Shown piece after piece: positions 8,300 through 40,895 of a stretch of 44,866 nt of DNA (the first letter of the stretch is position 1; each line of letters starts with the position of its first letter). This DNA comes from a virus (taxonomy: Duplodnaviria > Heunggongvirae > Uroviricota > Caudoviricetes): positions 1-44,866 of the IMG/VR virus record IMGVR_UViG_2579778842_000011. The stretch is one strand, 5' to 3'. The translations under genes and the position numbers were made by a program. A model generated the notes under the pieces. It was not told the DNA's origin, made no database searches, and was given only the letters and a program-made list of their open reading frames with translations.

Positions 8300-8350
8300 C
8301 TAAAATTTTTATTCATCGAATCGTTTGATTGATTAGTGAGCGGTTGAACG

Positions 8351-8405
8351 AAAAAAGATGAAAAAACTTCGAAAAAATTTCAAAAAAGACTTGACAAAAT
8401 CAAAA
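8351..8405. repeat. Phased A-tract array (predicted intrinsically bent DNA)
   Basis: A6 tracts at 8351, 8361, 8372, 8382 plus A4 tracts at 8395 and 8402, i.e. about 10-11 bp periodicity. Confidence 0.6.
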
Positions 8406-8642
8406 GGTACTGTTCCACGGGTGAAATAAAGGGAGTTTTCGGCACCCCGGTTTTTGATGTGCGTGTGAGATTTCAAAACAGGTGCAGTGCAGCCCACCAG
8501 CGCGGTCGCTACGCGACTATTAACACCCGCTAATCCCTTTCCCCGCCTCGATCTTTCCCTTCGTTATAAAGCGTTTTAGGCGCTCTCCTGAATGCGCAGA
8601 TCAGATAAATAATTTTACGCAAATTTAATGGAGGATAACCGG

Positions 8643-9203: not shown

Positions 9204-9220
9204 TTATAAATAATAGTGAG
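9204..9220 (+). promoter_or_regulatory. Recurrent 17-mer TTATAAATAATAGTGAG (copy 1), putative promoter -10/operator element
   Basis: Same motif recurs at 11159-11175 (minus), 12437-12453 and as a variant at 41018-41036, each 35-90 nt upstream of a gene start. Confidence 0.4.
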
Positions 9221-9246
9221 AAAGATGTTGAACGGGTCAACGTCTA

Positions 9247-9275
9247 CGGGGGAGAACATCCCCCGCTTAACTTTT
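9247..9275 (+). terminator. Hairpin, possible weak terminator/attenuator
   Basis: CGGGGGA-GAACA-TCCCCCG stem-loop followed by CTTAACTTTT. Confidence 0.3.
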
Positions 9276-9291
9276 AAGAGGATATAAAACT

Positions 9292-9576
9292 ATGGCTACT
9301 TTTATTACCTATGCTGTCACCATTACTATTCTGGCTGCTATCTCTGCTTATAAACTCGGAACCGAACCGAAAGAACGAGGCGAATTATTCTTAGGTGCGT
9401 TTGTTGCATTTGCTAGCCTTGCGTTAATTGTCGAAGGAATTTCTTATATTGTTGGCCTAGTTAGTATGACACTTTTTAACTTCCATCCAACTATTGCTAT
9501 GCATTTGATGCTGACCGTACTTTGGGTATATTGCTTAATCGAATTTTTAACGTTTGTTTTCAAACAGACTAAATAA
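9292..9576 (+). CDS. Small membrane protein (three predicted hydrophobic helices)
   Basis: 94 aa; AGAGGA RBS 9 nt upstream; three hydrophobic segments. Confidence 0.5.
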   Translation: MATFITYAVTITILAAISAYKLGTEPKERGELFLGAFVAFASLALIVEGISYIVGLVSMTLFNFHPTIAMHLMLTVLWVYCLIEFLTFVFKQTK

Positions 9577-9840
9577 TATTGTAATCTGCCTTTTCTCCTT
9601 ATGTGGTTTTAACAGGGAGCTTTCGAAAGAGAGTTCCCGATTAAAAGCCATAAAACACATTCAGTACAGTGTTTTCATAGTCAGTGATCTATACAACATA
9701 AAAACATAACAAGTATAGATTGAGTATTAATCCTCCCGCCTCGAAAGGGGCGGTTATTTTTCTGGCTTTACTGGATAATGTAGCATTATGTTCATTATAA
9801 ATCCTCATCTTTGTTGTGCAAACCTAACCTAAACTTACTA

Positions 9841-9865
9841 GGGACTCTTCGGAGTCCCTTTTTTT
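9841..9865. terminator. Bidirectional rho-independent terminator between convergent transcription units
   Basis: GGGACTC-TTCG-GAGTCCC followed by T7 on plus strand; overlaps the stop codon of the minus-strand 313 aa gene. Confidence 0.7.
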
Positions 9866-10805
9866 ATTGGCAGTAAGAAAAGTTAGTACCGTACATTTCA
9901 TCATGAAGCATTGCAGCATTGCGTTTCTGTTCTTCTTCCTCATCTTCTACATCACTAGAAAAATGAGATTTGCCCTTAAAAGAACGAAGTAATTGCAGTG
10001 CAGCCATCGGATCACGCATCACATCGATTTTCACTTCTACTTCATCATTTGCGGCCTCATCAGCCGCGTTTTCAACTACTGCCACCGGAGCAACTTCTTT
10101 AGCTTTCAGTTCTTCAATCTCAGCTTTCTGTGCTTCGATGATCTGGTCTTTTTCTTTCAGTGCAGCTTTCAGTTCTGCGATCTGTGCTTCCAGTGCAGCA
10201 AAGCGATCTTCAACAACCGGAGAAACAGCATTCACCTGTGCTTCCAGTTCCAGAAATGCTTCGCAAGATTCAATACGTTCTTTCTCTTCACCTTCATAAG
10301 CAACCAGTTCTACAACTTCTTTTTCGGTAGCGTGGCTGTTAAAGAATACAGCAAAGTAAGGATTGCCGGATTTAGTGAAGTTCAGTTTAGCTTTTCCGGT
10401 AACTTCTTTACGACGACCAAAGGTGATCTGGCAATCAGCGGTATCCTGAAAATCCATGTTAGGAGCGGAAACGATAGCAGTATCACCAGCAATAACCAGG
10501 TGGAACAGTTCAGAAGAGTTCTTAACGGTAAAGGTAACGATGTGGTCTACTGCAACGTCTTTAGCAGGTTTAACGCGGTCGATTGCTTTACGAATGCCGT
10601 TAGGCAGTTTACCGTCAACACCAAAGCCAGCCGCGATCAGTGCTTCACGATGTGCTTTAAAGCCAGCGAAAGCGGATTTCTGCTGCGCAAAGGAAACATG
10701 AGCAACAACTTTCGGCTGAATCTTCTTGTTTGCTTCGGTGCCAAATTTGATAACTGCTTTAGCGTTGGTTACTTCGTTAGTGAAAAAGTTAGCGGAAAAT
10801 AACAT
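9864..10805 (-). CDS. Hypothetical protein with central coiled coil and acidic C-terminal tail
   Basis: 313 aa; strong AGGAG RBS; heptad-like EAQIAELKAALKEKDQIIEAQKAEIEELKAK segment; C-terminal DVEDEEEEQ. Confidence 0.5.
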   Translation of the reverse strand: MLFSANFFTNEVTNAKAVIKFGTEANKKIQPKVVAHVSFAQQKSAFAGFKAHREALIAAGFGVDGKLPNGIRKAIDRVKPAKDVAVDHIVTFTVKNSSELFHLVIAGDTAIVSAPNMDFQDTADCQITFGRRKEVTGKAKLNFTKSGNPYFAVFFNSHATEKEVVELVAYEGEEKERIESCEAFLELEAQVNAVSPVVEDRFAALEAQIAELKAALKEKDQIIEAQKAEIEELKAKEVAPVAVVENAADEAANDEVEVKIDVMRDPMAALQLLRSFKGKSHFSSDVEDEEEEQKRNAAMLHDEMYGTNFSYCQ

Positions 10806-10854
10806 ATAAATACTCCTGAATACTCTGTGTTAGTTTTAATGTTTCATATCAAAA

Positions 10855-10890
10855 GCCTCCTTGCGCCAACAGGGAGGCTTTTTTATTTTT
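10855..10890. terminator. Hairpin terminator between the two minus-strand genes
   Basis: GCCTCCTTG..CAGGGAGGC stem followed by TTTTTTATTTTT on plus strand, A-run on the other side. Confidence 0.5.
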
Positions 10891-10922
10891 AAAGCCATCA
10901 TATAATTCTCAGTGAAAGGTTA

Positions 10923-11105
10923 TTACCAGACCTCGGCGGTAATCTTTACTTTAATGTCATACTTCTTTAAGAGTTTGTGAAAGGTTGATTGATCAATACC
11001 TTCACCTTTAAACCATTCACCCATCACTACATCAGGTGTCAGTTCAAAATAACGCTTTGCCATTTCTAAAACGATTTCACGAGTGAACTTAACAGGTCGT
11101 GCCAT
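10923..11105 (-). CDS. Small DNA-binding protein with resolvase/Hin-type HTH-like motif
   Basis: 60 aa; AGGAGG RBS; RPVKFTRE...GIDQSTFHKLLKKYDIK pattern; paralogous to 14641..14865. Confidence 0.45.
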   Translation of the reverse strand: MARPVKFTREIVLEMAKRYFELTPDVVMGEWFKGEGIDQSTFHKLLKKYDIKVKITAEVW

Positions 11106-11158
11106 CTTGAATCCTCCTAAATCTGGATTAATGATTTCTTAAAAAAGAGCGTCAACCG

Positions 11159-11175
11159 CTCACTATTATTTATAT
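11159..11175 (-). promoter_or_regulatory. Recurrent 17-mer (copy 2, ATATAAATAATAGTGAG on minus strand) upstream of the 60-aa gene
   Basis: Followed by AGTGAGCGGTTGACG, which also occurs at 8335-8350 near the prophage junction. Confidence 0.4.
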
Positions 11176-11622
11176 GGGGATTGTATTTTATTTTTCAACC
11201 CCTCACATTTATCTCTTATATATGTATTTATAACAGAGATATGTTAAAATGTTATTCAGATGTTATCAGACGTGTTAAATGTGTTAAACCGCAGCACGAA
11301 TTGCTAAAGCGGAGAGCACGAATTAACCAAATTGATGTATATTCAATCAATTTAGAAAAAGGCATAGCACTTTTTGCTAAAGCGGTGAGCATTAATTGAG
11401 CTATGAATTGTAAAGATTTGTTACAAGATTTTCTCTCAGATCCAAATCTTCACAAACATATAACAATTTAACAGAAGGATAACAAATGAAAGGAAATCGG
11501 TAAATTTTCACTTTCAATACAAATATTATACCACATTTTTCTCGAATTGTCAATTATAGCACCGATCCTACACAGTGTCAACAAAGGATTTTCAAACCTA
11601 CACTAGCCCTACACTATGAAAA

Positions 11623-11808
11623 TTGCCCCTGAATTTTTGCCCCTGAACCAAAATCCCCTAGATTCCACATCCAATTTTTGCCCCTGAAACCCACTATTTT
11701 TGCCCCTGAAATTCTGGGAAACAGTGATTTTGCCCCTCATTTTTGCCCCTGAAATGCCAATAATTGCCCCTGAAAATCTAATTTTTGCCCCTGAAATTTG
11801 CCCCTGAA
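11623..11808 (+). repeat. Iteron-like array: 9 direct copies of TTGCCCCTGAA (8 exact, 1 variant)
   Basis: Copies at 11623, 11637, 11678, 11700, 11730 (variant TTGCCCCTCAT), 11743, 11764, 11785, 11798; all same orientation, irregular 13-41 bp spacing, within a 1.4 kb region lacking ORFs of 60 aa or more. Confidence 0.75.
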
Positions 11809-12436
11809 AAGGATTTGTGAGAAAAACTCTTTATAAAACATTAACTTAGTGAGTGGCAAAACGGGGAATCGGGCGTGCATAGATATTATATAACACATTC
11901 GCTACGCTCATGTGTAAAACCAAAAACAACAAATAACCAAAAAGATATTAGGAGGGCGTAGCCCGACTGCGCGAAGCGCTAACCAATTACTTCTAGTAAC
12001 ACTAATTTAAACTAGATGATACTAGATGGTCTTAGAAGGAATTAACTAGTTTGCTCGCTCGCTTCGCTCACTCTCAAACGTCTGCGACGCCACTGCGTGG
12101 CATCGAGAATCACTTCTGAAAGGATTTTCTTGAAAGGGATTTTAAACTAGTTACTAACTGATTCTAGAAAGATAGTAATAATCACTTTGAAGATAATAGT
12201 AGTTAACTGGTTACTAGATGATTCTAGATCACTTTAATGATCATGAAAGGTATTGGTATCCCTTCGGGATTGCAACCTTCGGTTGCTAAATTGCTTCCTG
12301 ATTATAATTTCTCCAAAAGAAAGATTCTTATATTCTAAAGATACTTCTTCGTTTTGATGATGATTTAATCAAAATCTATGAAGGAGGCGAAGCCGACTGA
12401 ATACCAATTCCTTTCAAATTAGACAAAAATTTCTCG

Positions 12437-12453
12437 TTATAAATAATAGTGAA
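12437..12453 (+). promoter_or_regulatory. Recurrent 17-mer (copy 3, TTATAAATAATAGTGAA) about 35 nt upstream of gene 12489
   Basis: Sequence identity to copies 1 and 2. Confidence 0.4.
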
Positions 12454-12488
12454 CTTACTTTGATTCACTTTTTTAGAGGATTTCCACT

Positions 12489-12941
12489 ATGATCAATACT
12501 AAAACTCCTTTCATTCTTCTGGGTCTGAACCATGATGATAATCTGGCTATGATGCATGTTTTCGCTAATCGTGGTTATAACATCATTCGTCATTCCGAAG
12601 ACTCCAATTTCTCAACTGCTTTCTATGCTCTTAAACGTAATGGTCGCCCTACGGTGATCGTAGACTGCTTTACTGATGAAGGTCGTGAACAATACAACAA
12701 CATTCCGGCAATTATTGTTCGTGATGACCTGCCGTTTGATGTTCGTGAATATGACGTTGATTTAGGCTCTTACTATGGGATCGCCGATCTTGACCAGATT
12801 ATGGCTGATTATGGTAAACAACCCGCTCAGGAAGCCCCAGAACGAGATGAACAAGACGAAGATGACGACGACTACACACCAATCTGTTTCTCTTCTCACG
12901 GTGGCTTCTACGGTTACGATGAAGGCTTAGATATGCTGTAA
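12489..12941 (+). CDS. Hypothetical acidic early protein
   Basis: 150 aa; AGAGGA RBS; C-terminal ERDEQDEDDDDY acidic run. Confidence 0.5.
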   Translation: MINTKTPFILLGLNHDDNLAMMHVFANRGYNIIRHSEDSNFSTAFYALKRNGRPTVIVDCFTDEGREQYNNIPAIIVRDDLPFDVREYDVDLGSYYGIADLDQIMADYGKQPAQEAPERDEQDEDDDDYTPICFSSHGGFYGYDEGLDML

Positions 12942-12963
12942 TTTAGGTCAACCCTTTGGCGTC

Positions 12964-13005
12964 TTGTCAAGGGGTATTGACAAAAATTTCTGACTTTTTT
13001 ATGAT
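12964..13005 (+). promoter_or_regulatory. Candidate sigma70 promoter with overlapping inverted repeat (operator-like)
   Basis: TTGACA 12977-12982, 17 bp spacer, TATGAT 13000-13005; inverted repeat TTGTCAA(12964)/TTGACAA(12977) overlaps the -35. Confidence 0.45.
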
Positions 13006-13061
13006 TATCTCACTTGACAATTTTGAACCTATTTGACCTAGATTTGTAAAGAGGATGTAAC

Positions 13062-14324: not shown

Positions 14325-14332
14325 TAATTTTT

Positions 14333-14356
14333 GCCCCTGAATTTCAGGGGCTTTTT
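14333..14356 (+). terminator. Rho-independent terminator built from the iteron motif
   Basis: GCCCCTGAA-T-TTCAGGGGC perfect inverted repeat followed by TTTTT. Confidence 0.75.
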
Positions 14357-14395
14357 GTATCTGGAGTTTTTCGCCGAAAACCTGCAATACAGAAT

Positions 14396-14598
14396 TTCGA
14401 AAGAATCAATAGGTTAGAGATGAGCGCAGTTTTGCGCCGATTGATTCAAGTTTGAATTTCTCGAAAGAATCAACCACTTAGATAGATACGCTGAACTTTA
14501 AGCACATCCCCTCAGTTTTGAGGGCATCTATAGATCAGTCCAAATCTCTGGACTCATCGGAAGAATCAATGACTTATAGATGAGCGCAGTTTTGCGCG
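14396..14598. repeat. Three dispersed copies of an approximately 40-bp unit with embedded small hairpins
   Basis: Units start 14396, 14459, 14556 (TCGAAAGAATCAA...TTAGAGATGAGCGCAGTTTTGCGC); hairpins GCGCA-GTTTT-GCGC, CCCTCA-GTTT-TGAGGG, AGTCCA..TGGACT, ATTCAA-GT-TTGAAT. Confidence 0.6.
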
Positions 14599-14603
14599 GA
14601 TAT

Positions 14604-14633
14604 AAAAAAAAGGCCAACCCCGAAGGATTGGCC
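14604..14633 (-). terminator. Rho-independent terminator for the minus-strand operon ending at 14641
   Basis: On minus strand GGCCAATCC-TTCG-GGGTTGGCC followed by T8. Confidence 0.75.
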
Positions 14634-14640
14634 TAGAGAA

Positions 14641-22071: not shown

Positions 22072-22477
22072 TAACATGCCGAGACTGAAAATCAAACGCG
22101 CCTTGCAAGATATTATCGAACAAGATTTAGGTCTGGCTTTAAACGTAGAACAAACTCAGCAAGGCTTTAGTGATGATGTGGTTTGTTGGATCACCGGAAT
22201 GAATGAGACTTACACTAGGGTCCGTGGTGGTAATGCAATGCAAGCTGAATGCGTTATCGAAATGCAATTATATTCTCAGATTCATGAAACCAAAATTCAT
22301 GAGGGTATTTGCCAGATAATCCAGATTCAGCCGGATAACCCACGTTTTAAAGATTTGGGCTTCTCTATTTCAGATATCACTCCAGTAGCTTCTAATACCG
22401 ATTATGACGATGATTCTAGTGATGGGGGTATCGTTGGGACACTTAGCCTTAAATTTTCTTATCTAGCGCGTTTTTAA
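22055..22477 (+). CDS. Putative head-tail joining protein
   Basis: ORF 22007..22477; ATG 22055 has GGGGG 5 nt upstream; overlaps end of previous gene; start uncertain (alternative 22076). Confidence 0.35.
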   Translation: MLATVNNMPRLKIKRALQDIIEQDLGLALNVEQTQQGFSDDVVCWITGMNETYTRVRGGNAMQAECVIEMQLYSQIHETKIHEGICQIIQIQPDNPRFKDLGFSISDITPVASNTDYDDDSSDGGIVGTLSLKFSYLARF

Positions 22478-23399: not shown

Positions 23400-26300
23400 A
23401 TGCAGTCGATCCAATTTAAACGCACACAAACGGCTGGTAAAAAACCAACGCCGGAACAATTATCACAGGGTGAAATCGCCTTACAACTGGCGGACCATGT
23501 GATTTACACCAAAGATAAAAATAATAACGTAGTCCAAATTAGTGTTTCTCCAGAAAAACACGCTGAACTGAATACGAAAGTAGACACCAACAAGGTCAAT
23601 ACAGATAAAGTCATTTCAGCAAATAAAACCGAAGCCGCTAATAATCTGGCTAGTGCTAAAGCTGAACTTAATCAGACTATCACTTCTACCCGTGATGCTC
23701 TCAATGCTTCAATCACTGCTGGCGACACCGCAGCCAACAAACGAATTGATGCTTTGACTACCACAGTAGGTAACAATAAAACCGAAGCGGCTAACGCTCT
23801 GGCGGCTGCTAAGACTGAACTGAATCAGACTATTACTTCAACCCGCGATACTATCAACGCAACAATTAACAAGAACAAGACAGATATTAATGCACGAGTT
23901 GATCAGACTAATACCAACGTTACTAACTTAACGAATAATATCGCAGCAAATAAATCAGCAATAGAAAAGACGGTAGCGGATAATAAGAAAGATGCGGACA
24001 CGAAGATCACCAATCTTACTAGTACGGTCTCTGCGAATAAGACATCCATTGAAAGAACTGTTGCAAATAACAAGGCCAGTGCCGATGCCGCAATTGCCGC
24101 AGCTAATCAGCGAATTGATTCTATTGAAGGTAGTGCCGATGCTGCTTACATCAAGAAGAATACCAACACTTACCATCACGGCTATCTGTTAACCAAAACA
24201 GCTAACTATTTGGAAGACCAGACAGCGAGAGATCTTAACTACTTTGGTGCTTTCCGTACCAATGGTCAAGATGGACTCATGGATCTAACTCTTAACGTTC
24301 CTCACTCTGCCGGCAAAGCGCACGGTCGCGGATTTACTTTCCGTTATGCGTCTGGTGGATCTCGTGTTGAAACCTATGGTTTTGATAGAGAAGGACAGAA
24401 GAACTTTAGCTATAAGATGTATCACGAAGGTGATAAGCCGACTCCTGGCGAAATCGGTGCATACACTAAAGCAGAAGTTGACAAGATGTTTGTTAAAAAC
24501 GTCACTATGTCTGTTCCTAATTCTAGCGAAAACGTATCTGCATATTTCAAATTGGCAACCGCAACAATTCCACAAAACGGGCGTAGTGTGTTTTTCCGTA
24601 TTCATGGTGGTAATGGTTACAACGTTACGGCATATGACCAAGTTGATGTAGTAGAAATTCTTCTCCGTAGTGGTAACGATAGACCTAAAGGACTTAACGT
24701 AGTTGCATATCGTCGAAATACCGTCAAAGATTTTGATGTATTTGCCGTCAATACATCCGGTGATAACTATGACATTTATGTGAAATATCAGCGTTACACT
24801 GATAACGTTATTGTTGAATTTGGTAAAAGTGTTTATGTTAATCTGACTGTTCACGATACACCGGAAGCCACGTTAATTAAACCTTCTGTTGGTGTTATTG
24901 ATGGGCGCATCATTACTCTATTCAATACAGAAAACAAACGAGGTGTGTTGAGTTTTGACGATAACCCACAAAATAGTTATGATATTGTTCACTTGAGTAA
25001 TGATAGGGGTACTGGACGAAAATATATTCGTAAATTCCGTAGCAACTATAACGAAATGATCTGGCATGAGACGGTTCAAGGTTCTACTTATCGACTCGCC
25101 ACGGGTAGTACAGATGCCCAGGAGATTCTATCCGTTGAATCTAGTAGCTCTATTGCTGGGACTCATAAAGGTAATATTCTTTCTGGTCGAATGATGTTGG
25201 GTGGCGGTAGTAATGTTATTACCTTGCGGCGTCCTGCTGGTCAATCCAACCATATTACGTTTCAAGATAATCGGACTGGATCTATTACCCGTCAAGGGTG
25301 GATCGGTTATGGTAATGCTGATACTAACGTTTTTGAATGGTATAGTGATGTAGGTGGCAGTTCTATTCGTCACCACATCGACGGACAGATCGAACTTGCA
25401 ACCGGTAACACAAAACGCGTTTATACTAACGCTCAATTCATCTCAATGAATAGCGACGCCTACCGTATGCTCTATGGTAATTATGGTGCATTCTGGCGTA
25501 ATGACGGCGTTAAAGTTTATCTTCTTTCTACTGCCGAAAATGATAAATTGGGCGGATGGAATACTTATCGTCCATTCATTTATGATTTAACTTCCGGCAA
25601 CGTTCAATTAGGCGGTGATGGTAACGAAGATGCATTAACGTTAGAACGTGCTTCTCGTGCCGCTCGCTTTAGTAATGACGTTTACATTAAGAAAGGGCAT
25701 TTGACTTTCGACGCTGGGCGATTAAATTCCCGCGATTATTTCCGGTTTAACCATTGGGGTGATAGCAATAACGGTCGCGATAACATCCTACAGATTGAAG
25801 ACAGTCAGGGCGCACATTTTATCACTGAACGTGCTATGGGTACTGGTAACATAACAACACGTTTTAGAGGCTTTGTACGTGTAGAATCTGGTGAAATTGC
25901 ATTTGATGCTAACCGTGGTTCTTCTTCGCAATTTAGTCTCCATACATGGGGTAACGAGCAACGCAAACAGGTTTTTGAATGTAAGGATGCTACAAGTTAT
26001 CACTGGTATACTGAACGTACTCAGGGTGGCACTGGACCTATTCTGTTCTCTATGGCGGGTAGTCTAAACGTTGCTAGCAATATCACAACAACTGGTGCTG
26101 ATATTACGTTTAAACGCGCTGGCAATAAGCACATCTGGTTTAGAGATCCAAACGGTTTAGAGTTGGGCTTGATGTATTGCGATGACGCTGGTGTTATTCG
26201 CTTCCGTGGTGAGAAACAAACCGAAGTCTGGAAATTCGGCGGTAAGATGATTCACCTTGAAACGGGCACTGTATCCGGTGGCGGTAATGGTCTTATTCGT

Positions 26301-38835: not shown

Positions 38836-40326
38836 TTATATAGCAATGGTTTTAGTTGCATAGCTGAACTTGTCGGTTAGATAATAGCGGATTCTCTCAA
38901 GTGCATGTTTTACCGCATAATTTTTATGCTTGACTTTTCCGTTACGACCGAATATACACAGATGATCTATAAGATCCCAGACCGTTGCAATATCCTTAGA
39001 ACCATGTTTACGCAATGCACGACCGATACTCTGACGAACGATAGTTGATTCCTTCACTGGATGACCGAAAATAACATGGTGCAAATTCTTAATTGAAACA
39101 CCAGTAGAGAACACACCATAGGATGCAACACAAATGATCCCTGTTTCCCCTTCCGCTAATTTCTTAAATTCATCACGTTCTTCTGTCTTAACTCCACCGT
39201 CAATATAATAAACCTTGTCGTGTACCTTCTGTAACGCATCATACATAAGTTTTCCGTGCTTAGTATTGCGGAACATCAGGAATACGTTTTCGCCCTTCTT
39301 AGCGAGTTTTAGCGCCAAATTACAAGCAAACTTATTTCGTCGTGGGTTAGACGTAATATACTTGATCTCTTCCGCATATTCCCGCCCCTTAACCGCGCTA
39401 CATTCCTCATCGGTATAACGAAGGAAAAGGCAGTTAATTTTCAGTTTTGTCACTTGACCTTCTTCCATCAGGCGGTCAATACTCACGATCTTAGAAATAT
39501 CACCGAAAAGCCCGACGTACTGCATTAAATGGCACTTTGATTCTTTCGGGGAACCAGTCATACCGATTTTGAACTGGCAATGATTCATTCCGTTAATGAT
39601 ATTGGTAATATTTTTGGCACTAGCCTTATGTGATTCATCAACTATCAACATTCCATATTGTTTGAACCATTCAGGAGGCATCTTGCAAGCTGATTGCCAG
39701 GTACTAACCGTGATTAACCTGTCTCCCGGATGTTTCCCGCTACCACTCATCATTGTATGAATTGCTTCATAAGGGAATAGCCTATAATCGACAAAATCAT
39801 CCCTCATTTGAACCACCAGCGATGTAGTAGGGACAATGATTAGAACTTTTCCGGTGTAGTTCTCTAAGTACCAACGAGACAGCATACAAGCAATCAATGA
39901 CTTACCCGCACTGGTAGGAAGAACCAGCATTCTACGGCGATTATGAATACCCTGAAAGACTGCCTCCCTTTGATACCAGTAAGGATTGATTTTATTGGAA
40001 CCGGAATACACTTCTAGGGAATCAATCCATTCATTAATCGCGTCTTTGGTTACATCTTCCTTCTCAAGCAATCTGGGGTCAATCCAGACTGAATAGCCCA
40101 TATTTTTAACGAAGACACCCAACGTTTTTAATAGTCCAATTGGTAGGGTGTTTTCATGCGTAAACAGTCTTATTCGTCCATCCCAGCCAGAATACTTGTA
40201 ACGGGGGCTAAACCTAGCCCCTTCAACCTCAAACGAGAAATAATCTCTTAATTCCATTCCGATAGAAGGAGAGCAATCAACCTTAACGAAACTGTAATCT
40301 TGAAAATGAATTTTAATATCTTGCAT
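38836..40326 (-). CDS. SF2 DExH helicase, T4 UvsW-like
   Basis: ATG at 40326 overlapping upstream stop (TAATG); N-terminus MQDIKIHFQDYSFVKVDC and whole length resemble recalled T4 UvsW; motifs LPTSAGKSL, DESH, QSIGRALRKHG. Confidence 0.8.
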   Translation of the reverse strand: MQDIKIHFQDYSFVKVDCSPSIGMELRDYFSFEVEGARFSPRYKYSGWDGRIRLFTHENTLPIGLLKTLGVFVKNMGYSVWIDPRLLEKEDVTKDAINEWIDSLEVYSGSNKINPYWYQREAVFQGIHNRRRMLVLPTSAGKSLIACMLSRWYLENYTGKVLIIVPTTSLVVQMRDDFVDYRLFPYEAIHTMMSGSGKHPGDRLITVSTWQSACKMPPEWFKQYGMLIVDESHKASAKNITNIINGMNHCQFKIGMTGSPKESKCHLMQYVGLFGDISKIVSIDRLMEEGQVTKLKINCLFLRYTDEECSAVKGREYAEEIKYITSNPRRNKFACNLALKLAKKGENVFLMFRNTKHGKLMYDALQKVHDKVYYIDGGVKTEERDEFKKLAEGETGIICVASYGVFSTGVSIKNLHHVIFGHPVKESTIVRQSIGRALRKHGSKDIATVWDLIDHLCIFGRNGKVKHKNYAVKHALERIRYYLTDKFSYATKTIAI

Positions 40327-40895
40327 TAGTTCCACTCCACACTTGCAATATTCTTTATATTGTTTAGTGATTTATTGCAGTAGTGGAATGTTTCAGTTTT
40401 GCCGTATTCAATCCCGCCTATACCCACATCCAGTAATCTCTTTATTGCTCTTTCAGTGGCTAAAGCATGTTTCATTGATGGCATTTCACCAGCAAAGACA
40501 ATATCAAAGTTATGACCGGGATTGCGTACACCCAGATTAATGCGTCGCTTGATGATTGACTTTGTTACACCAAATTTACCAATATCCCCTGATTTCATTA
40601 CATAGAGATAAGGCACACCCGCTTTATATTGAAAGTAATCACTTTTGAGACATGCACAGCGTTTACCTTCATTAAGCAGGTTGGTAGCTGATTTGTCGGC
40701 TCTATTGCCGCATCGGGTACATGTAAGAGCAATTCTTGAATGAAGCCCTTTAAACTCACCCAGAAAGCCATGAAAGACTAATGGTAAGTCCTTATCTTTG
40801 ATGTGAGTCAGAATGCGTTGTTCTAATGCCGATGGAGTTACAGCACGGGAGGATTTAGGAGTAAAAACAATATCTTTAGCCATTACTGGAATCAT
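40326..40895 (-). CDS. Zinc-ribbon + T5orf172/GIY-YIG-like domain protein
   Basis: 189 aa; GAGG RBS; CTRCGN...CAC Cys cluster; YLYVMKSGDIGKFGVTK...R...E pattern. Confidence 0.5.
   Translation of the reverse strand: MIPVMAKDIVFTPKSSRAVTPSALEQRILTHIKDKDLPLVFHGFLGEFKGLHSRIALTCTRCGNRADKSATNLLNEGKRCACLKSDYFQYKAGVPYLYVMKSGDIGKFGVTKSIIKRRINLGVRNPGHNFDIVFAGEMPSMKHALATERAIKRLLDVGIGGIEYGKTETFHYCNKSLNNIKNIASVEWN

What the first reader, a model, noticed from the sequence alone, without database searches (positions are those of the whole stretch)
11106..12488. Long ORF-poor region packed with additional repeat families and UUCG-type hairpins (possible ncRNA or regulatory hub)
Apart from the iterons, the region contains repeated TAGATGAT(A/T)CTAGA-like units (about 11993-12015, 12141-12160, 12211-12228), two related GGAGG(G)CG(T)AGCC(C)GACTG elements (about 11951 and 12383), and consecutive short stem-loops with TTCG loops (ATCCC-TTCG-GGAT and GCAACC-TTCG-GTTGC at about 12258-12290). 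There is no ORF of 60 aa or more with a ribosome-binding site. Such density of structured, repeated sequence between divergent early operons suggests small RNAs and/or multiple protein-binding sites.
Basis: seen in the sequence. Interest (0 to 1): 0.5.

Follow-up and report, generated by a model that had tools for sequence, protein, structure and literature searches.

The report
Prophage control and replication-origin region
This 1.4-kb gene-free stretch is the control and probable replication-start region of an unstudied E. coli prophage, built from promoters, terminators, repeated protein-binding motifs and very small stable hairpins rather than small-RNA genes, and one piece of it is unexpectedly shared with unrelated T4-like viruses.

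Summary
The repeats and hairpins are real and far above chance, and no credible ORF lies in 11106-12488. The window is E. coli chromosome plus a ~37-kb prophage inserted in ycdX. The gap lies between its divergent 60-aa/313-aa and 150-aa operons, is unannotated in RefSeq, occurs in about 57 of 5426 complete E. coli genomes, and is strongly mosaic.

Left part: two tandem consensus sigma-70 promoters fire leftward through a ~380-nt leader to a terminator placed just before the 60-aa gene. The iteron type is perfectly linked to the type of the 313-aa protein.

Right part:
- arrays of CTAG-type palindromes and GAAAGnnAT/ATCACTTTC half-sites;
- seven C-GNA-G triloop "mini-hairpins".
- a cassette shared only with Krischvirus (RB49-like T4 phages);
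- an invariant TATAAATA box before three genes.

No Rfam family matches, no compensatory change supports an RNA fold, and no internal promoter-terminator pair was found.

Best reading: a modular DNA-level control and origin hub with PeSL-like promoter/stem-loop cassettes. Small-RNA genes are not supported. The hairpins could instead be single-strand priming signals. Moderately interesting; a new variant of a known kind.

The parts
11147..11161 (.). Terminator-like hairpin GAGCG-GTTGA-CGCTC with a T-run on the minus strand, about 40 nt before the ribosome-binding site (AGGAGG, 11113-11118 minus) of the 60-aa gene
   Evidence: flagged on both strands; dG -8.3, z -3.3; stem invariant in 15 relatives
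11160..11174 (-). TATAAATAATAGTGA box, one of three exact copies in the window. The core TATAAATA lies 69-72 nt upstream of the 60-aa start codon in every relative
11176..11202 (-). GGGG...CCCC stem-loop containing a -35-like TTGAAA, 18 nt from the TATAAA of the box (PeSL-like layout). The same unit sits elsewhere in leader type B
11241..11397 (.). TGTTA(A/T) repeats (11241-11290) and two 32-nt direct repeats AGCAC..TTGCTAAAGCGG.GAGCA (11293-11324, 11366-11397)
   Evidence: (D5)
11408..11455 (-). 13-bp inverted repeat in the only fully invariant 50-nt bin of the leader
   Evidence: (I15)
11525..11581 (-). Two tandem sigma-70 promoters, each TTGACA-17-TGnTATAAT (12/12), firing leftward. Relatives keep both with small deviations (TATACT, TTGAAA)
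   Evidence: equivalent strong leftward promoter in leader type B
11567..11614 (+). Three CCTACAC motifs, the iteron of another phage type. One lies inside the spacer of the upstream promoter
11622..11809 (+). Iterons TTTTGCCCCTGAA (7-8 copies). This is the neighbouring finding, but it is functionally part of the same region
   Evidence: D1, D2; linked to the 313-aa protein type
11951..11979 (+). GGAGG element 1 with hairpin GGGC-GTA-GCCC followed by GACTG, then hairpin GCGC-GAA-GCGC (contains GCGAAGC)
11993..12051 (.). First CTAG cluster: tandem ACTAGATGAT/ACTAGATGGT and the palindrome AACTAGTT
12061..12101 (-). GCTTCGC (GCGAAGC on the minus strand), CGTC-TGC-GACG and GCCAC-TGC-GTGGC. These are GNA triloops when read on the minus strand. 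Only 1 variable column in 12050-12099
12106..12255 (.). AT-rich array (GC 28-30%) of half-sites ATCACTTY / TGAAAGG and CTAGA-N4-TCTAG units, with a ~60-bp internal duplication (12145-12168 / 12205-12228; 12181-12197 / 12228-12244)
12258..12286 (-). On the minus strand they read as C-GAA-G triloops, including CCGAAGG
12299..12383 (+). AT-rich cassette: two 17-nt AAAGAT.CTT repeats plus the palindrome TTTTGAT-N9-ATCAAAA. It is shared at about 80% identity with an intergenic tandem repeat of Krischvirus
12383..12399 (+). GGAGG element 2: GGC-GAA-GCC then GACTG. The loop varies in relatives (GAA/TTTA/TTT/TAT) while the flanks are kept
12400..12452 (+). Half-site ATACCAATTCCTTTCA next to the promoter-like TAGACA-16-AATAAT (12420-12447), with the TATAAATAATAGTGA box (12438-12452) 47-53 nt before the 150-aa start
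12448..12488 (+). Inverted repeat AGTGAA/TTCACT plus a T-run, then Shine-Dalgarno AGAGGA (12475-12480) before the ATG at 12489
   Evidence: (I8)

Best explanation
The gap is the early-control and replication-origin region of an uncharacterised temperate siphophage. The phage has a lambda-gpA-type terminase and a large serine integrase, and it is inserted in ycdX. The region works mainly at the DNA and transcription-signal level. It is assembled from exchangeable modules rather than from small-RNA genes.

Leftward module:
- Two tandem near-consensus sigma-70 promoters abut the iterons.
- They transcribe a ~380-nt leader that ends at an intrinsic terminator just before the 60-aa gene.
- A second terminator precedes the 313-aa gene.
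- Synthesis of the 313-aa protein, the probable iteron-binding initiator, is therefore gated by termination or read-through, and probably by iteron occupancy next to the promoters.

Rightward module, upstream of the weak promoter of the 150-aa gene and overlapping it:
- arrays of two operator-like motif families (CTAGA-N4-TCTAG, and ATCACTTTC/GAAAGnnAT);
- short GC-rich stem-loops that act as transcriptional punctuation or insulators, in the same stem-loop-then-promoter layout as the PeSL cassettes of RB49-like T4 phages.

Shown: the motifs, their clustering, their conservation, the mosaicism, the iteron-protein linkage and the homology to Krischvirus. Inferred: which proteins bind, promoter and terminator activity, origin function.
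For: Context:
- Host genes up to ycdX, then a prophage with terminase, portal, capsid, tail genes, a UvsW-like helicase and a serine recombinase.
- The region is unannotated, is present in 57-58 of 5426 complete E. coli genomes, and is full-length at 90-98% identity in 25 of them.

Promoters and terminators:
- Two 12/12 promoters with TGn at 11581-11525 (-), a terminator at 11147-11161, and a bidirectional terminator at 10851-10882.
- A strong leftward promoter and a pre-gene hairpin recur in the unrelated leader type B.
- The promoter hexamers are kept in relatives.

Iteron-protein linkage: across 55 loci, the 313-aa protein goes with TTGCCCCTGA, the 339-aa protein with CCTACAC and the 333-aa protein with TCCCCG. 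This holds whichever leader type lies between them. The three proteins share one architecture.

Operator-like motifs:
- They cluster only here and occur in both orientations.
- L014 carries the perfect palindrome CCAATCACTTTCTAGAAAGTGATTGG.
- One half-site abuts the -35 of the 150-aa promoter.

Stem-loop plus promoter layout:
- The promoter of the 110-aa gene (TTGACA-17-TATGAT) follows a CCCC/GGGG stem-loop placed right after a stop codon.
- There is a GGGG...CCCC/TTGAAA unit at 11176-11202.
- Hairpins at the positions of 11954-11964 and 12258-12286 score as terminator-like in relatives.
- PeSL definition and terminator assay: PMC2839356 and PMC4122927.

Mosaic breakpoints fall at about 11150, 11629, 12110, 12208, 12299 and 12417.

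Against an RNA gene.
Against: - No transcription data exist, so every promoter and terminator is a consensus match.
- Most of the GC-rich hairpins lack the U-run of an intrinsic terminator (one search lists only 11147-11161 inside the region).
- No strong promoter reads into them.
- Their marked bias to C-GNA-G triloops on a fixed strand is not what terminators need and points to a single-stranded-DNA role.
- No DNA-binding protein could be assigned. The 60-aa protein gives only a medium-confidence three-helix model with no significant fold match. The 313-aa family is tiny and unannotated.
- No DnaA boxes are present.
- The Krischvirus stretch that is homologous to 12299-12383 is not one of the published PeSLs, and it contains no good sigma-70 promoter.
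- Both halves fold much better than shuffles (z -4.2 and -5.8), so an RNA role is not excluded.
Confidence: 0.5

Rival explanations
1. The GC-rich hairpins are single-stranded-DNA signals of the origin. They would be extruded or exposed when the iteron region is opened. There they would resist SSB and direct priming or primosome loading on each strand. The model is the mini-hairpins at the phage G4 complementary-strand origin or at ssiA/ssiB of the RSF1010 oriV. The AT-rich arrays between them would be the unwinding element.
For: - 7 of the 20 triloop hairpins in 11900-12400 are C-GNA-G, against 12 of 675 in the rest of the window and 0.14 expected in shuffles.
- GCGAAGC occurs three times in 680 nt, and CCGAAGG is present on the minus strand.
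- The strand pattern is plus at 11954 and 11969, and minus at 12061-12286. L014, L035, L012 and Krischvirus keep the GNA-type loops (GTA, GAA, TAC, TGC) with different stems.
- The hairpins lie next to the iterons.
- The prophage encodes a UvsW-like helicase but no recognisable primase or helicase loader.
- The review PMC13037366 places GCGNAGC/GCGNNAGC/CCGAAGG mini-hairpins at G4, St-1 and alpha3 origins, at RSF1010 ssiA, and at N4 virion-polymerase promoters.
Against: - The loops of the two GGAGG-element hairpins change freely to TTT, TTTA or TAT in relatives.
- One replacement hairpin has an AGG loop.
- Theta-type iteron origins normally need no such signals.
- The CTG after the first hairpin is absent in L014.
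- Nearest-neighbour DNA folding gives ordinary energies except for 12255-12290.
- Nothing here tests priming.
Confidence: 0.3
2. The region encodes one or more functional non-coding RNAs. One candidate is the ~380-nt leftward leader, acting as an immunity or attenuator RNA in the manner of the phage P4 CI leader or the HK022 put sites. Another would be small RNAs bounded by the hairpins.
For: - Very strong tandem promoters are followed by a terminator before the first gene.
- Both halves fold far better than shuffles.
- Part of the leader is invariant.
- No protein repressor is recognisable in the prophage.
Against: - No Rfam family matches.
- 0 of 110 predicted pairs show a compensatory change.
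- The shared leader motifs occur in a different order in leader type B, so they act as independent units rather than as one fold.
- The inner half of the long-range helix in the right half is only 60% paired in relatives.
- There is no promoter of 9/12 or better inside 11800-12420.
Confidence: 0.12
3. The stretch is mostly recombination debris. It would consist of scars of repeated module exchange among related prophages and with T4-like phages, with function limited to the promoters and iterons.
For: - The region is extremely mosaic and shows copy-number and duplication polymorphism.
- One relative lacks a 17-mer of the cassette.
Against: - Substitution density in the hairpin and cassette segments is as low as or lower than in the flanking genes.
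- Hairpins are replaced by hairpins, not lost.
- TATAAATA is invariant in all contexts.
- A 1.4-kb non-functional gap is unlikely in a 37-kb phage.
Confidence: 0.06

Closest known systems
PeSL (promoter-early stem-loop) cassettes of RB49/phi1-type T4 phages (Arbiol et al. 2010, PMC2839356; Comeau et al. 2014, PMC4122927)
   Same: - Near-consensus sigma-70 promoters are coupled to short GC-rich stem-loops in intergenic DNA.
- G(n)-loop-C(n) stems lie at or beside the -35.
- Cassette borders coincide with mosaic breakpoints.
- There is real sequence homology (77-85% over about 85 nt) between 12299-12383 and a Krischvirus intergenic repeat, which is flanked there by the same kind of triloop hairpins.
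   Different: - The host element here is a temperate siphophage, not a T4-type hyperplastic region.
- The homologous Krischvirus stretch is not among the described PeSLs and holds no good promoter on either strand.
- Several hairpins here are clustered without a promoter.
- Promoter and terminator activity is untested.
Iteron-type replication origins with an adjacent initiator gene (plasmids P1, F, pSC101, R6K; phage lambda ori; RSF1010 oriV with ssiA/ssiB)
   Same: - A cluster of 7-8 short direct repeats lies next to the operon of a protein whose type changes together with the repeat sequence.
- AT-rich flanks are present.
- As in RSF1010, stable hairpins lie on opposite strands beside the iterons.
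   Different: - There are no DnaA boxes.
- The putative initiator has no detectable similarity to known Rep proteins.
- No phage primase or helicase loader is found.
- The hairpins are more numerous and spread over 450 nt.
- Replication function is not shown.
d(GCGAAGC)-type mini-hairpins (Hirao and co-workers; review PMC13037366)
   Same: Hairpins are closed by C-G around GNA triloops. They include exact GCGAAGC (three times) and CCGAAGG, and they sit in a region likely to start replication or transcription.
   Different: - The known cases are single-stranded phage origins, RSF1010 ssiA and N4 virion-polymerase promoters.
- No such polymerase or primase is encoded here.
- Two of the seven hairpins do not keep the GNA loop in relatives.
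T4-type late promoter TATAAATA (PMC1524935)
   Same: The octamer is identical, is invariant in all relatives, stands 47-88 nt upstream of three genes in the sense orientation, and has no conserved -35 at the 60-aa gene.
   Different: - No gp55, gp33 or gp45 is recognised in the prophage.
- At the 150-aa gene the box also supplies a sigma-70-like -10 (AATAAT) with a -35-like hexamer.
- No start sites are mapped.
Leader-RNA control of phage early operons (P4 CI/immunity leader; HK022 put antitermination RNA)
   Same: A constitutive-looking strong promoter and a long structured leader are followed by a terminator upstream of replication genes.
   Different: - There is no sequence or Rfam similarity.
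- No internal complementarity of the seqA/seqB/seqC type was found.
- There is no covariation.
- The leader motifs are shuffled between phage types.

Membership tests
PeSL cassette | Sigma-70 promoter at or near consensus | tested here: inconclusive
   Met by the leftward pair at 11581-11525 (12/12) and by the 110-aa promoter just outside the region (11/12). Only 10/12 at 12420-12447. Nothing of 9/12 or better lies inside the Krischvirus-homologous cassette 12299-12383.
PeSL cassette | Stable stem-loop (typically G(n)-loop-C(n)) within or next to the promoter | tested here: met
   GGGG...CCCC at 11176-11202 around TTGAAA. CCCCTT/AAGGGG before the 110-aa promoter. Hairpins at 12258-12286 lie upstream of the 150-aa promoter.
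PeSL cassette | Stem-loop terminates transcription; promoter is active in vivo | not testable with these tools
   Only consensus scans are available. Inside the region, only 11147-11161 has a U-run. Equivalents in L014 and L034 score as terminator-like.
PeSL cassette | Located in hyperplastic regions of T4-type myoviruses | tested here: not met
   The element is a temperate siphophage-like prophage with a serine integrase. Only the 85-nt cassette and part of a tail-fibre gene are shared with Krischvirus.
PeSL cassette | Associated with modular shuffling between relatives | tested here: met
   Breakpoints fall at about 11150, 11629, 12110, 12208, 12299 and 12417.
Iteron replication origin | Array of short direct repeats | tested here: met
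   7-8 copies of TTTTGCCCCTGAA at 11622-11809.
Iteron replication origin | Cognate initiator encoded nearby, with specificity matched to the iterons | tested here: inconclusive
   Three protein types and three iteron types are perfectly linked over 55 loci, independent of leader type. Binding and initiator activity are not shown, and no similarity to Rep families was found.
Iteron replication origin | DnaA boxes | tested here: not met
   TTWTNCACA gives one match in the region (11911-11919) and 3 in the window against 5 expected.
Iteron replication origin | AT-rich unwinding element adjacent | tested here: inconclusive
   GC is 26-31% at 11400-11550 and 28-30% at 12100-12250. No recognised 13-mer set is present.
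Single-strand initiation signal (G4-type / RSF1010 ssi) | Stable hairpin(s) containing a GNA or GNNA mini-hairpin on a defined strand | tested here: met
   Seven C-GNA-G hairpins, with the strand pattern kept in relatives.
Single-strand initiation signal (G4-type / RSF1010 ssi) | Primase-dependent priming on the single strand | not testable with these tools
   This needs an in vitro priming assay or an M13 rescue assay.
Single-strand initiation signal (G4-type / RSF1010 ssi) | Dedicated primase (RSF1010 type) | tested here: not met
   None appears in the RefSeq annotation of the prophage or in the Pfam scans.
C(UUCG)G tetraloop hairpin | UUCG loop closed by C-G on a continuous stem | tested here: not met
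   Both hairpins fold as 5- and 6-bp stems with UUC triloops. The tetraloop register leaves only 2 base pairs.
Any curated RNA family (Rfam 15) | Covariance-model score at or above the gathering threshold | tested here: not met
   Nothing was found in the region or in relatives. The E-value scan gives only sub-threshold noise.
T4-type late promoter | TATAAATA core without need of a -35 | tested here: met
   Exact and invariant at three genes. No conserved -35 at the 60-aa site.
T4-type late promoter | Recognition by gp55 with gp33/gp45; start 6 nt downstream | not testable with these tools
   No gp55-like protein was seen in the ORFs scanned or in RefSeq names. Not every ORF was scanned, and no start sites are known.

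The most novel reading that the evidence does not exclude
The right-hand module may be an interface with T4-like Krischvirus phages. The prophage's early operons carry invariant, -35-independent T4-late-type TATAAATA promoters. They sit beside a non-coding cassette and mini-hairpins that the prophage shares only with Krischvirus. Late transcription, or replication, by a superinfecting RB49-like phage would then switch on the prophage's replication and early genes, either as a defence or as a way to escape a doomed cell. On the same reading, the homologous Krischvirus intergenic repeat would mark a so far unrecognised cis-acting site, either an origin or a recombination site, of those phages.
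Probability: 0.08. Interest if true: 0.8.

Novelty: new variant of a known kind. Interest (0 to 1): 0.45.

Why it matters
The prophage family is common enough to matter (about 1% of complete E. coli genomes, many from pigs and humans). It is entirely unannotated in its control region and has no recognisable repressor, initiator or primase. This stretch is therefore where its lysis-lysogeny and replication logic must be read.

Three points are directly testable:
- An iteron/initiator pair exists in three interchangeable specificities behind the same control DNA. This is a natural experiment in origin specificity.
- The dense, strand-specific cluster of C-GNA-G mini-hairpins next to an origin could show what these extraordinarily stable DNA hairpins do in a double-stranded phage.
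- A piece of non-coding DNA and a T4-late-type promoter box are shared between a temperate siphophage and virulent T4-like phages. This shows that regulatory cassettes, not only genes, move between very different viruses.

If none of this holds, the region is still a useful worked example of a PeSL-like architecture outside the T4 group.

Tried and rejected
- **Rfam.** Gathering and E-value scans of the window and of relatives gave nothing usable.
- **Covariation, leftward leader.** 15 distinct relatives gave no compensatory pair. There is too little divergence to decide.
- **Long-range RNA helix 12244-12260 / 12400-12416.** RNAfold suggests it. The 3' arm varies without compensation and the inner half is 60% paired, so I read these as copies of one DNA motif.
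- **Small peptides.** The 14-codon ORF at 12378 and the AGGAGG at 11950 and 12382 have no conserved start or frame. The hairpin lengths of 9, 11 and 12 nt shift the frame.
- **The 72-aa ORF at 11181-11399.** TTG start, no ribosome-binding site.
- **TATAAT at 12303 as a -10.** It is TATTAT in most relatives and lacks a -35.
- **MotA-box promoter.** TGCTT is only 6 nt from the -10, so rejected on spacing (my own knowledge of T4 middle promoters; PMC4122927).
- **Host-factor sites.** FNR, Fur and IHF readings of TTGAT-N9-ATCAA were rejected by eye on spacing or low match. DnaA boxes: not enriched.
- **Iterons as terminase (cos) sites.** Rejected, because TerS is the same in phages with different iterons and a GC-rich cos-like stretch lies before TerS.
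- **GC skew.** It follows gene orientation only.
- **Wider relatives.** None in the GTDB species representatives for the 150-aa protein or TerL, none by megablast in INPHARED phages or PLSDB plasmids. The cassette pattern occurs in IMG/VR and metagenomes only in this prophage family and in Krischvirus. One mistyped pattern cost a scan.
- **Proteins.**
  - 313-aa homologues are all "hypothetical", with 12 representatives.
  - The PDB sequence search returned nothing.
  - The 60-aa AlphaFold model (pLDDT 72, three helices) has no significant fold match.
  - Krischvirus ORF164 and ORF165 have no relatives in the window.
- **Literature.** No paper on a ycdX prophage of this kind was found. The Krischvirus ORF164/165 spacer is not discussed in the PeSL paper.
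Full report
**What the window is.** Positions 1 to about 8000 are E. coli chromosome (pgaA, dgcT, ycdU, tRNA-Ser, ghrA, a truncated ycdX). The rest is a ~37-kb prophage. It carries a small and a lambda-gpA-type large terminase subunit, portal, capsid and tail genes. It also carries an M15 endolysin, a helicase with a UvsW N-terminal domain, a GIY-YIG protein and a large serine recombinase at the far end. Region 11106-12488 lies between the 60-aa gene (10923-11105, minus; followed by a 313-aa gene) and the 150-aa gene (12489-12941, plus; followed by a 110-aa gene and a Rha/Ant-like gene). Nothing is annotated there in RefSeq. The stretch occurs on the chromosome of 57-58 of 5426 complete E. coli genomes, and is full-length at 90-98% identity in 25 of them. 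It has no megablast match in the phage or plasmid collections. Neither the 150-aa protein nor the terminase has a relative in the GTDB species representatives.

**The observation.**
- The TAGATGAT(A/T)CTAGA units are at 12011, 12021, 12153 and 12213, four matches against 0.6 expected.
- The two GGAGG..GACTG elements are at 11951-11969 and 12383-12399, against 0 expected.
- The two adjacent hairpins are at 12258-12270 and 12272-12286.
- The only ORF of 60 aa or more (11181-11399, TTG start) has no ribosome-binding site.

Two corrections apply. The first repeat interval was placed slightly too far left. The hairpins are not UUCG tetraloops: they are perfect 13- and 15-bp palindromes that fold with TTC triloops.

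**The left half (11106-11628).**
- The promoter scan finds two tandem, perfect sigma-70 promoters on the minus strand, each TTGACA-17-TGnTATAAT (11581-11553 and 11553-11525).
- It also finds a terminator-like hairpin with a T-run at 11161-11147, about 40 nt before the AGGAGG of the 60-aa gene. A further bidirectional terminator lies between the 60-aa and 313-aa genes.
- The predicted transcript is therefore a 370-400-nt leader.
- It folds far better than shuffles (z -5.8). However, 15 distinct relatives give no compensatory change in 110 predicted pairs.
- Relatives carry a second, unrelated leader (type B). It again has a near-consensus leftward promoter about 350 nt from the gene and a hairpin with a T-run before the ribosome-binding site.
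- The few motifs shared by the two leader types are AGCACGAATTGCTAAAG, the GGGG..TTGAAA..CCCC unit, ATGTATTTATA and TATAAATA. They occur in a different order in the two types, which argues for independent signals rather than one RNA fold.

**Iterons and their protein.** Three iteron types exist in the family: TTTGCCCCTGAA, CCTACAC(TA) and TCCCCG. Over 55 loci, each type is perfectly linked to one type of the protein encoded after the 60-aa gene (313 aa, 339 aa and 333 aa). The linkage holds whichever leader lies between them. The three proteins share an N-terminal domain / coiled coil / acidic tail layout, and two of them are detectably related. This is the signature of an iteron-binding protein, most simply a replication initiator. 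The family is tiny and unannotated.

**The right half (11810-12488).** An unbiased k-mer comparison with the rest of the window picks out CTAG-containing words, TGAAAGG/CCTTTCA, ATCACTT and GCGAAGC.
- CTAG is rare in the window, yet eight copies lie in 11993-12227. Seven of the nine ACTAGWT matches lie there too.
- TGAAAGG and its complement-like partner ATCACTTY form one half-site family. In L014 it appears as the perfect palindrome CCAATCACTTTCTAGAAAGTGATTGG.
- RNAfold joins 12244-12260 to 12400-12416. In relatives the 3' arm changes without compensation, and the inner half of this helix is paired in only 60% of cells. I therefore read these as copies of a protein-binding motif. One copy abuts the -35 of the promoter-like site TAGACA-16-AATAAT (12420-12447), and others flank its start region.
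- That promoter is a weaker paralogue of the strong TTGACA-17-TATGAT promoter in front of the 110-aa gene. The 110-aa promoter follows a CCCC/GGGG stem-loop placed directly after a stop codon.

**The hairpins.**
- Seven hairpins closed by C-G around a GNA triloop, read on one strand or the other, lie in 11954-12394. That is 7 of the 20 triloop hairpins there, against 12 of 675 in the rest of the window and 0.14 expected in shuffles.
- Read as GNA, the first two are on the plus strand, the next five sites on the minus strand, and the last on the plus strand.
- Exact GCGAAGC occurs three times, and CCGAAGG once on the minus strand.
- Relatives and Krischvirus keep hairpins of this kind at the same places with different stems: ACGGC-GTA-GCCGT, GCGC-GTA-GCGC, ACGCC-TAC-GGCGT, TGC-TTC-GCA, TCGC-TTC-GCGA and ACTCC-TAC-GGAGT.
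- The constraint is not universal. The loops of the two GGAGG-element hairpins interchange among GTA, GAA, TTT, TTTA and TAT. One replacement hairpin has an AGG loop.
- Such mini-hairpins are extraordinarily stable in DNA. They are reported at the G4, St-1 and alpha3 complementary-strand origins, at RSF1010 ssiA, and at N4 virion-polymerase promoters (PMC13037366).

**The link to T4-like phages.**
- Blastn finds 12299-12383 at 77-85% identity in intergenic DNA of RB49/Phi1-type phages (Krischvirus), in one to three places per genome.
- In Phi1 it is a tandem 149-bp repeat between a DprA-like ORF164 and ORF165, again beside C-GNA-G hairpins.
- Pattern scans of IMG/VR and of metagenomes find the cassette only in these two contexts.
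- The cassette holds two 17-nt AAAGAT.CTT repeats and a palindrome TTTTGAT-N9-ATCAAAA. The palindrome is a perfect 10+10 in L035, and one 17-mer is missing in L061.
- The same two phage groups also share part of a tail-fibre gene.
- RB49/phi1 are the phages in which PeSLs were defined: near-consensus sigma-70 promoters coupled to G(n)-loop-C(n) stem-loops that terminate transcription and mediate modular shuffling (PMC2839356; PMC4122927).
- The prophage shows that layout at several promoters. Its mosaic breakpoints (about 11150, 11629, 12110, 12208, 12299 and 12417) fall at module borders.
- However, the homologous Krischvirus stretch is not a described PeSL, and it contains no good promoter.

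**The TATAAATA box.**
- The exact 15-mer TATAAATAATAGTGA occurs three times: 9205 (+), 11174 (-) and 12438 (+). Each copy is in the sense orientation upstream of a gene.
- Across all relatives the octamer TATAAATA is invariant 47-53 nt before the 150-aa gene, 69-72 nt before the 60-aa gene (in both leader types, with different flanks) and 85-88 nt before the 94-aa gene.
- Five of the window's six copies lie in 9205-12445.
- This is the T4-type late promoter core, which RB49 also uses (PMC1524935).
- At the 150-aa gene the box also offers a sigma-70-like -10 with a -35-like hexamer. At the 60-aa gene no -35 is conserved.
- I found no gp55-like protein in the prophage, so I record this as unexplained.

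**Verdict.**
- The stretch is best explained as the phage's early-control and origin region. It is a mosaic of DNA-level signals: promoters, terminators, operator arrays, iterons and promoter-associated stem-loops.
- I give this general reading about 0.5.
- For the hairpins specifically, I rate transcriptional punctuation of the PeSL kind slightly above single-strand origin signals (about 0.4 against 0.3). The loop bias favours the origin-signal reading. The layout and the precedent favour punctuation.
- Stand-alone small-RNA genes are not supported, but without transcript data they cannot be excluded (about 0.1).
- The region is a new variant of a known kind of element.

Noticed in passing
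window 14360-14640: A second ORF-free, repeat-rich stretch lies between the Rha-like gene and the 76-aa gene. It has three copies of TCGRAAGAATCAA... and two 45-nt copies ending in AGATGAGCGCAGTTTTGCGC.
   Followed up: partly
window 14326-14350: The terminator after the Rha-like gene is an inverted pair of the iteron core (TTTTGCCCCTGAA / TTCAGGGGC). It seems to be present also in phages with other iteron types.
   Followed up: no
window 9205-9219, 11160-11174 (-), 12438-12452: The exact 15-mer TATAAATAATAGTGA sits upstream of three genes. Its core TATAAATA, the T4 late-promoter octamer, is invariant in every relative.
   Followed up: partly
window 24183-25000: Part of the 1172-aa tail-fibre gene is 78-94% identical in DNA to the distal long-tail-fibre gene (gp37) of Krischvirus phages. 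Gene exchange with that group is therefore real.
   Followed up: no
window 38836-40335 (-): The prophage helicase carries a UvsW N-terminal domain (E 2e-34). No primase, helicase loader or known initiator is recognisable in the prophage.
   Followed up: partly
window 22242-22332 (-): ARAGORN calls a 91-nt tRNA-Gln(ttg) inside coding sequence. Rfam's tRNA model does not report it, so it is probably a false call.
   Followed up: no
window 12942-13061: A textbook stem-loop-then-promoter cassette: the stop codon of the 150-aa gene, a CCCCTT...AAGGGG stem-loop, TTGACA-17-TATGAT, and a CTAGAT site about 26 nt after the likely start. It is conserved in all relatives scanned.
   Followed up: partly
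window 11567-11614: Phages with TTTGCCCCTGAA iterons still carry three CCTACAC motifs, the iteron of another type. One lies inside the spacer of the upstream leftward promoter.
   Followed up: no
window 8333-8351 and 8400-8627: ATTAGTGAGCGGTTGAACG near the prophage's left end resembles the box-plus-terminator at 11161-11143 (-). The GC-rich stretch before the small terminase gene is a candidate cos site.
   Followed up: no
L004 (phage Phi1) 1231-1643: The Krischvirus spacer between ORF164 (DprA-like) and ORF165 is a tandem 149-bp repeat with C-GNA-G hairpins. It is not discussed in the PeSL papers and may be a cis-acting site of those phages.
   Followed up: partly
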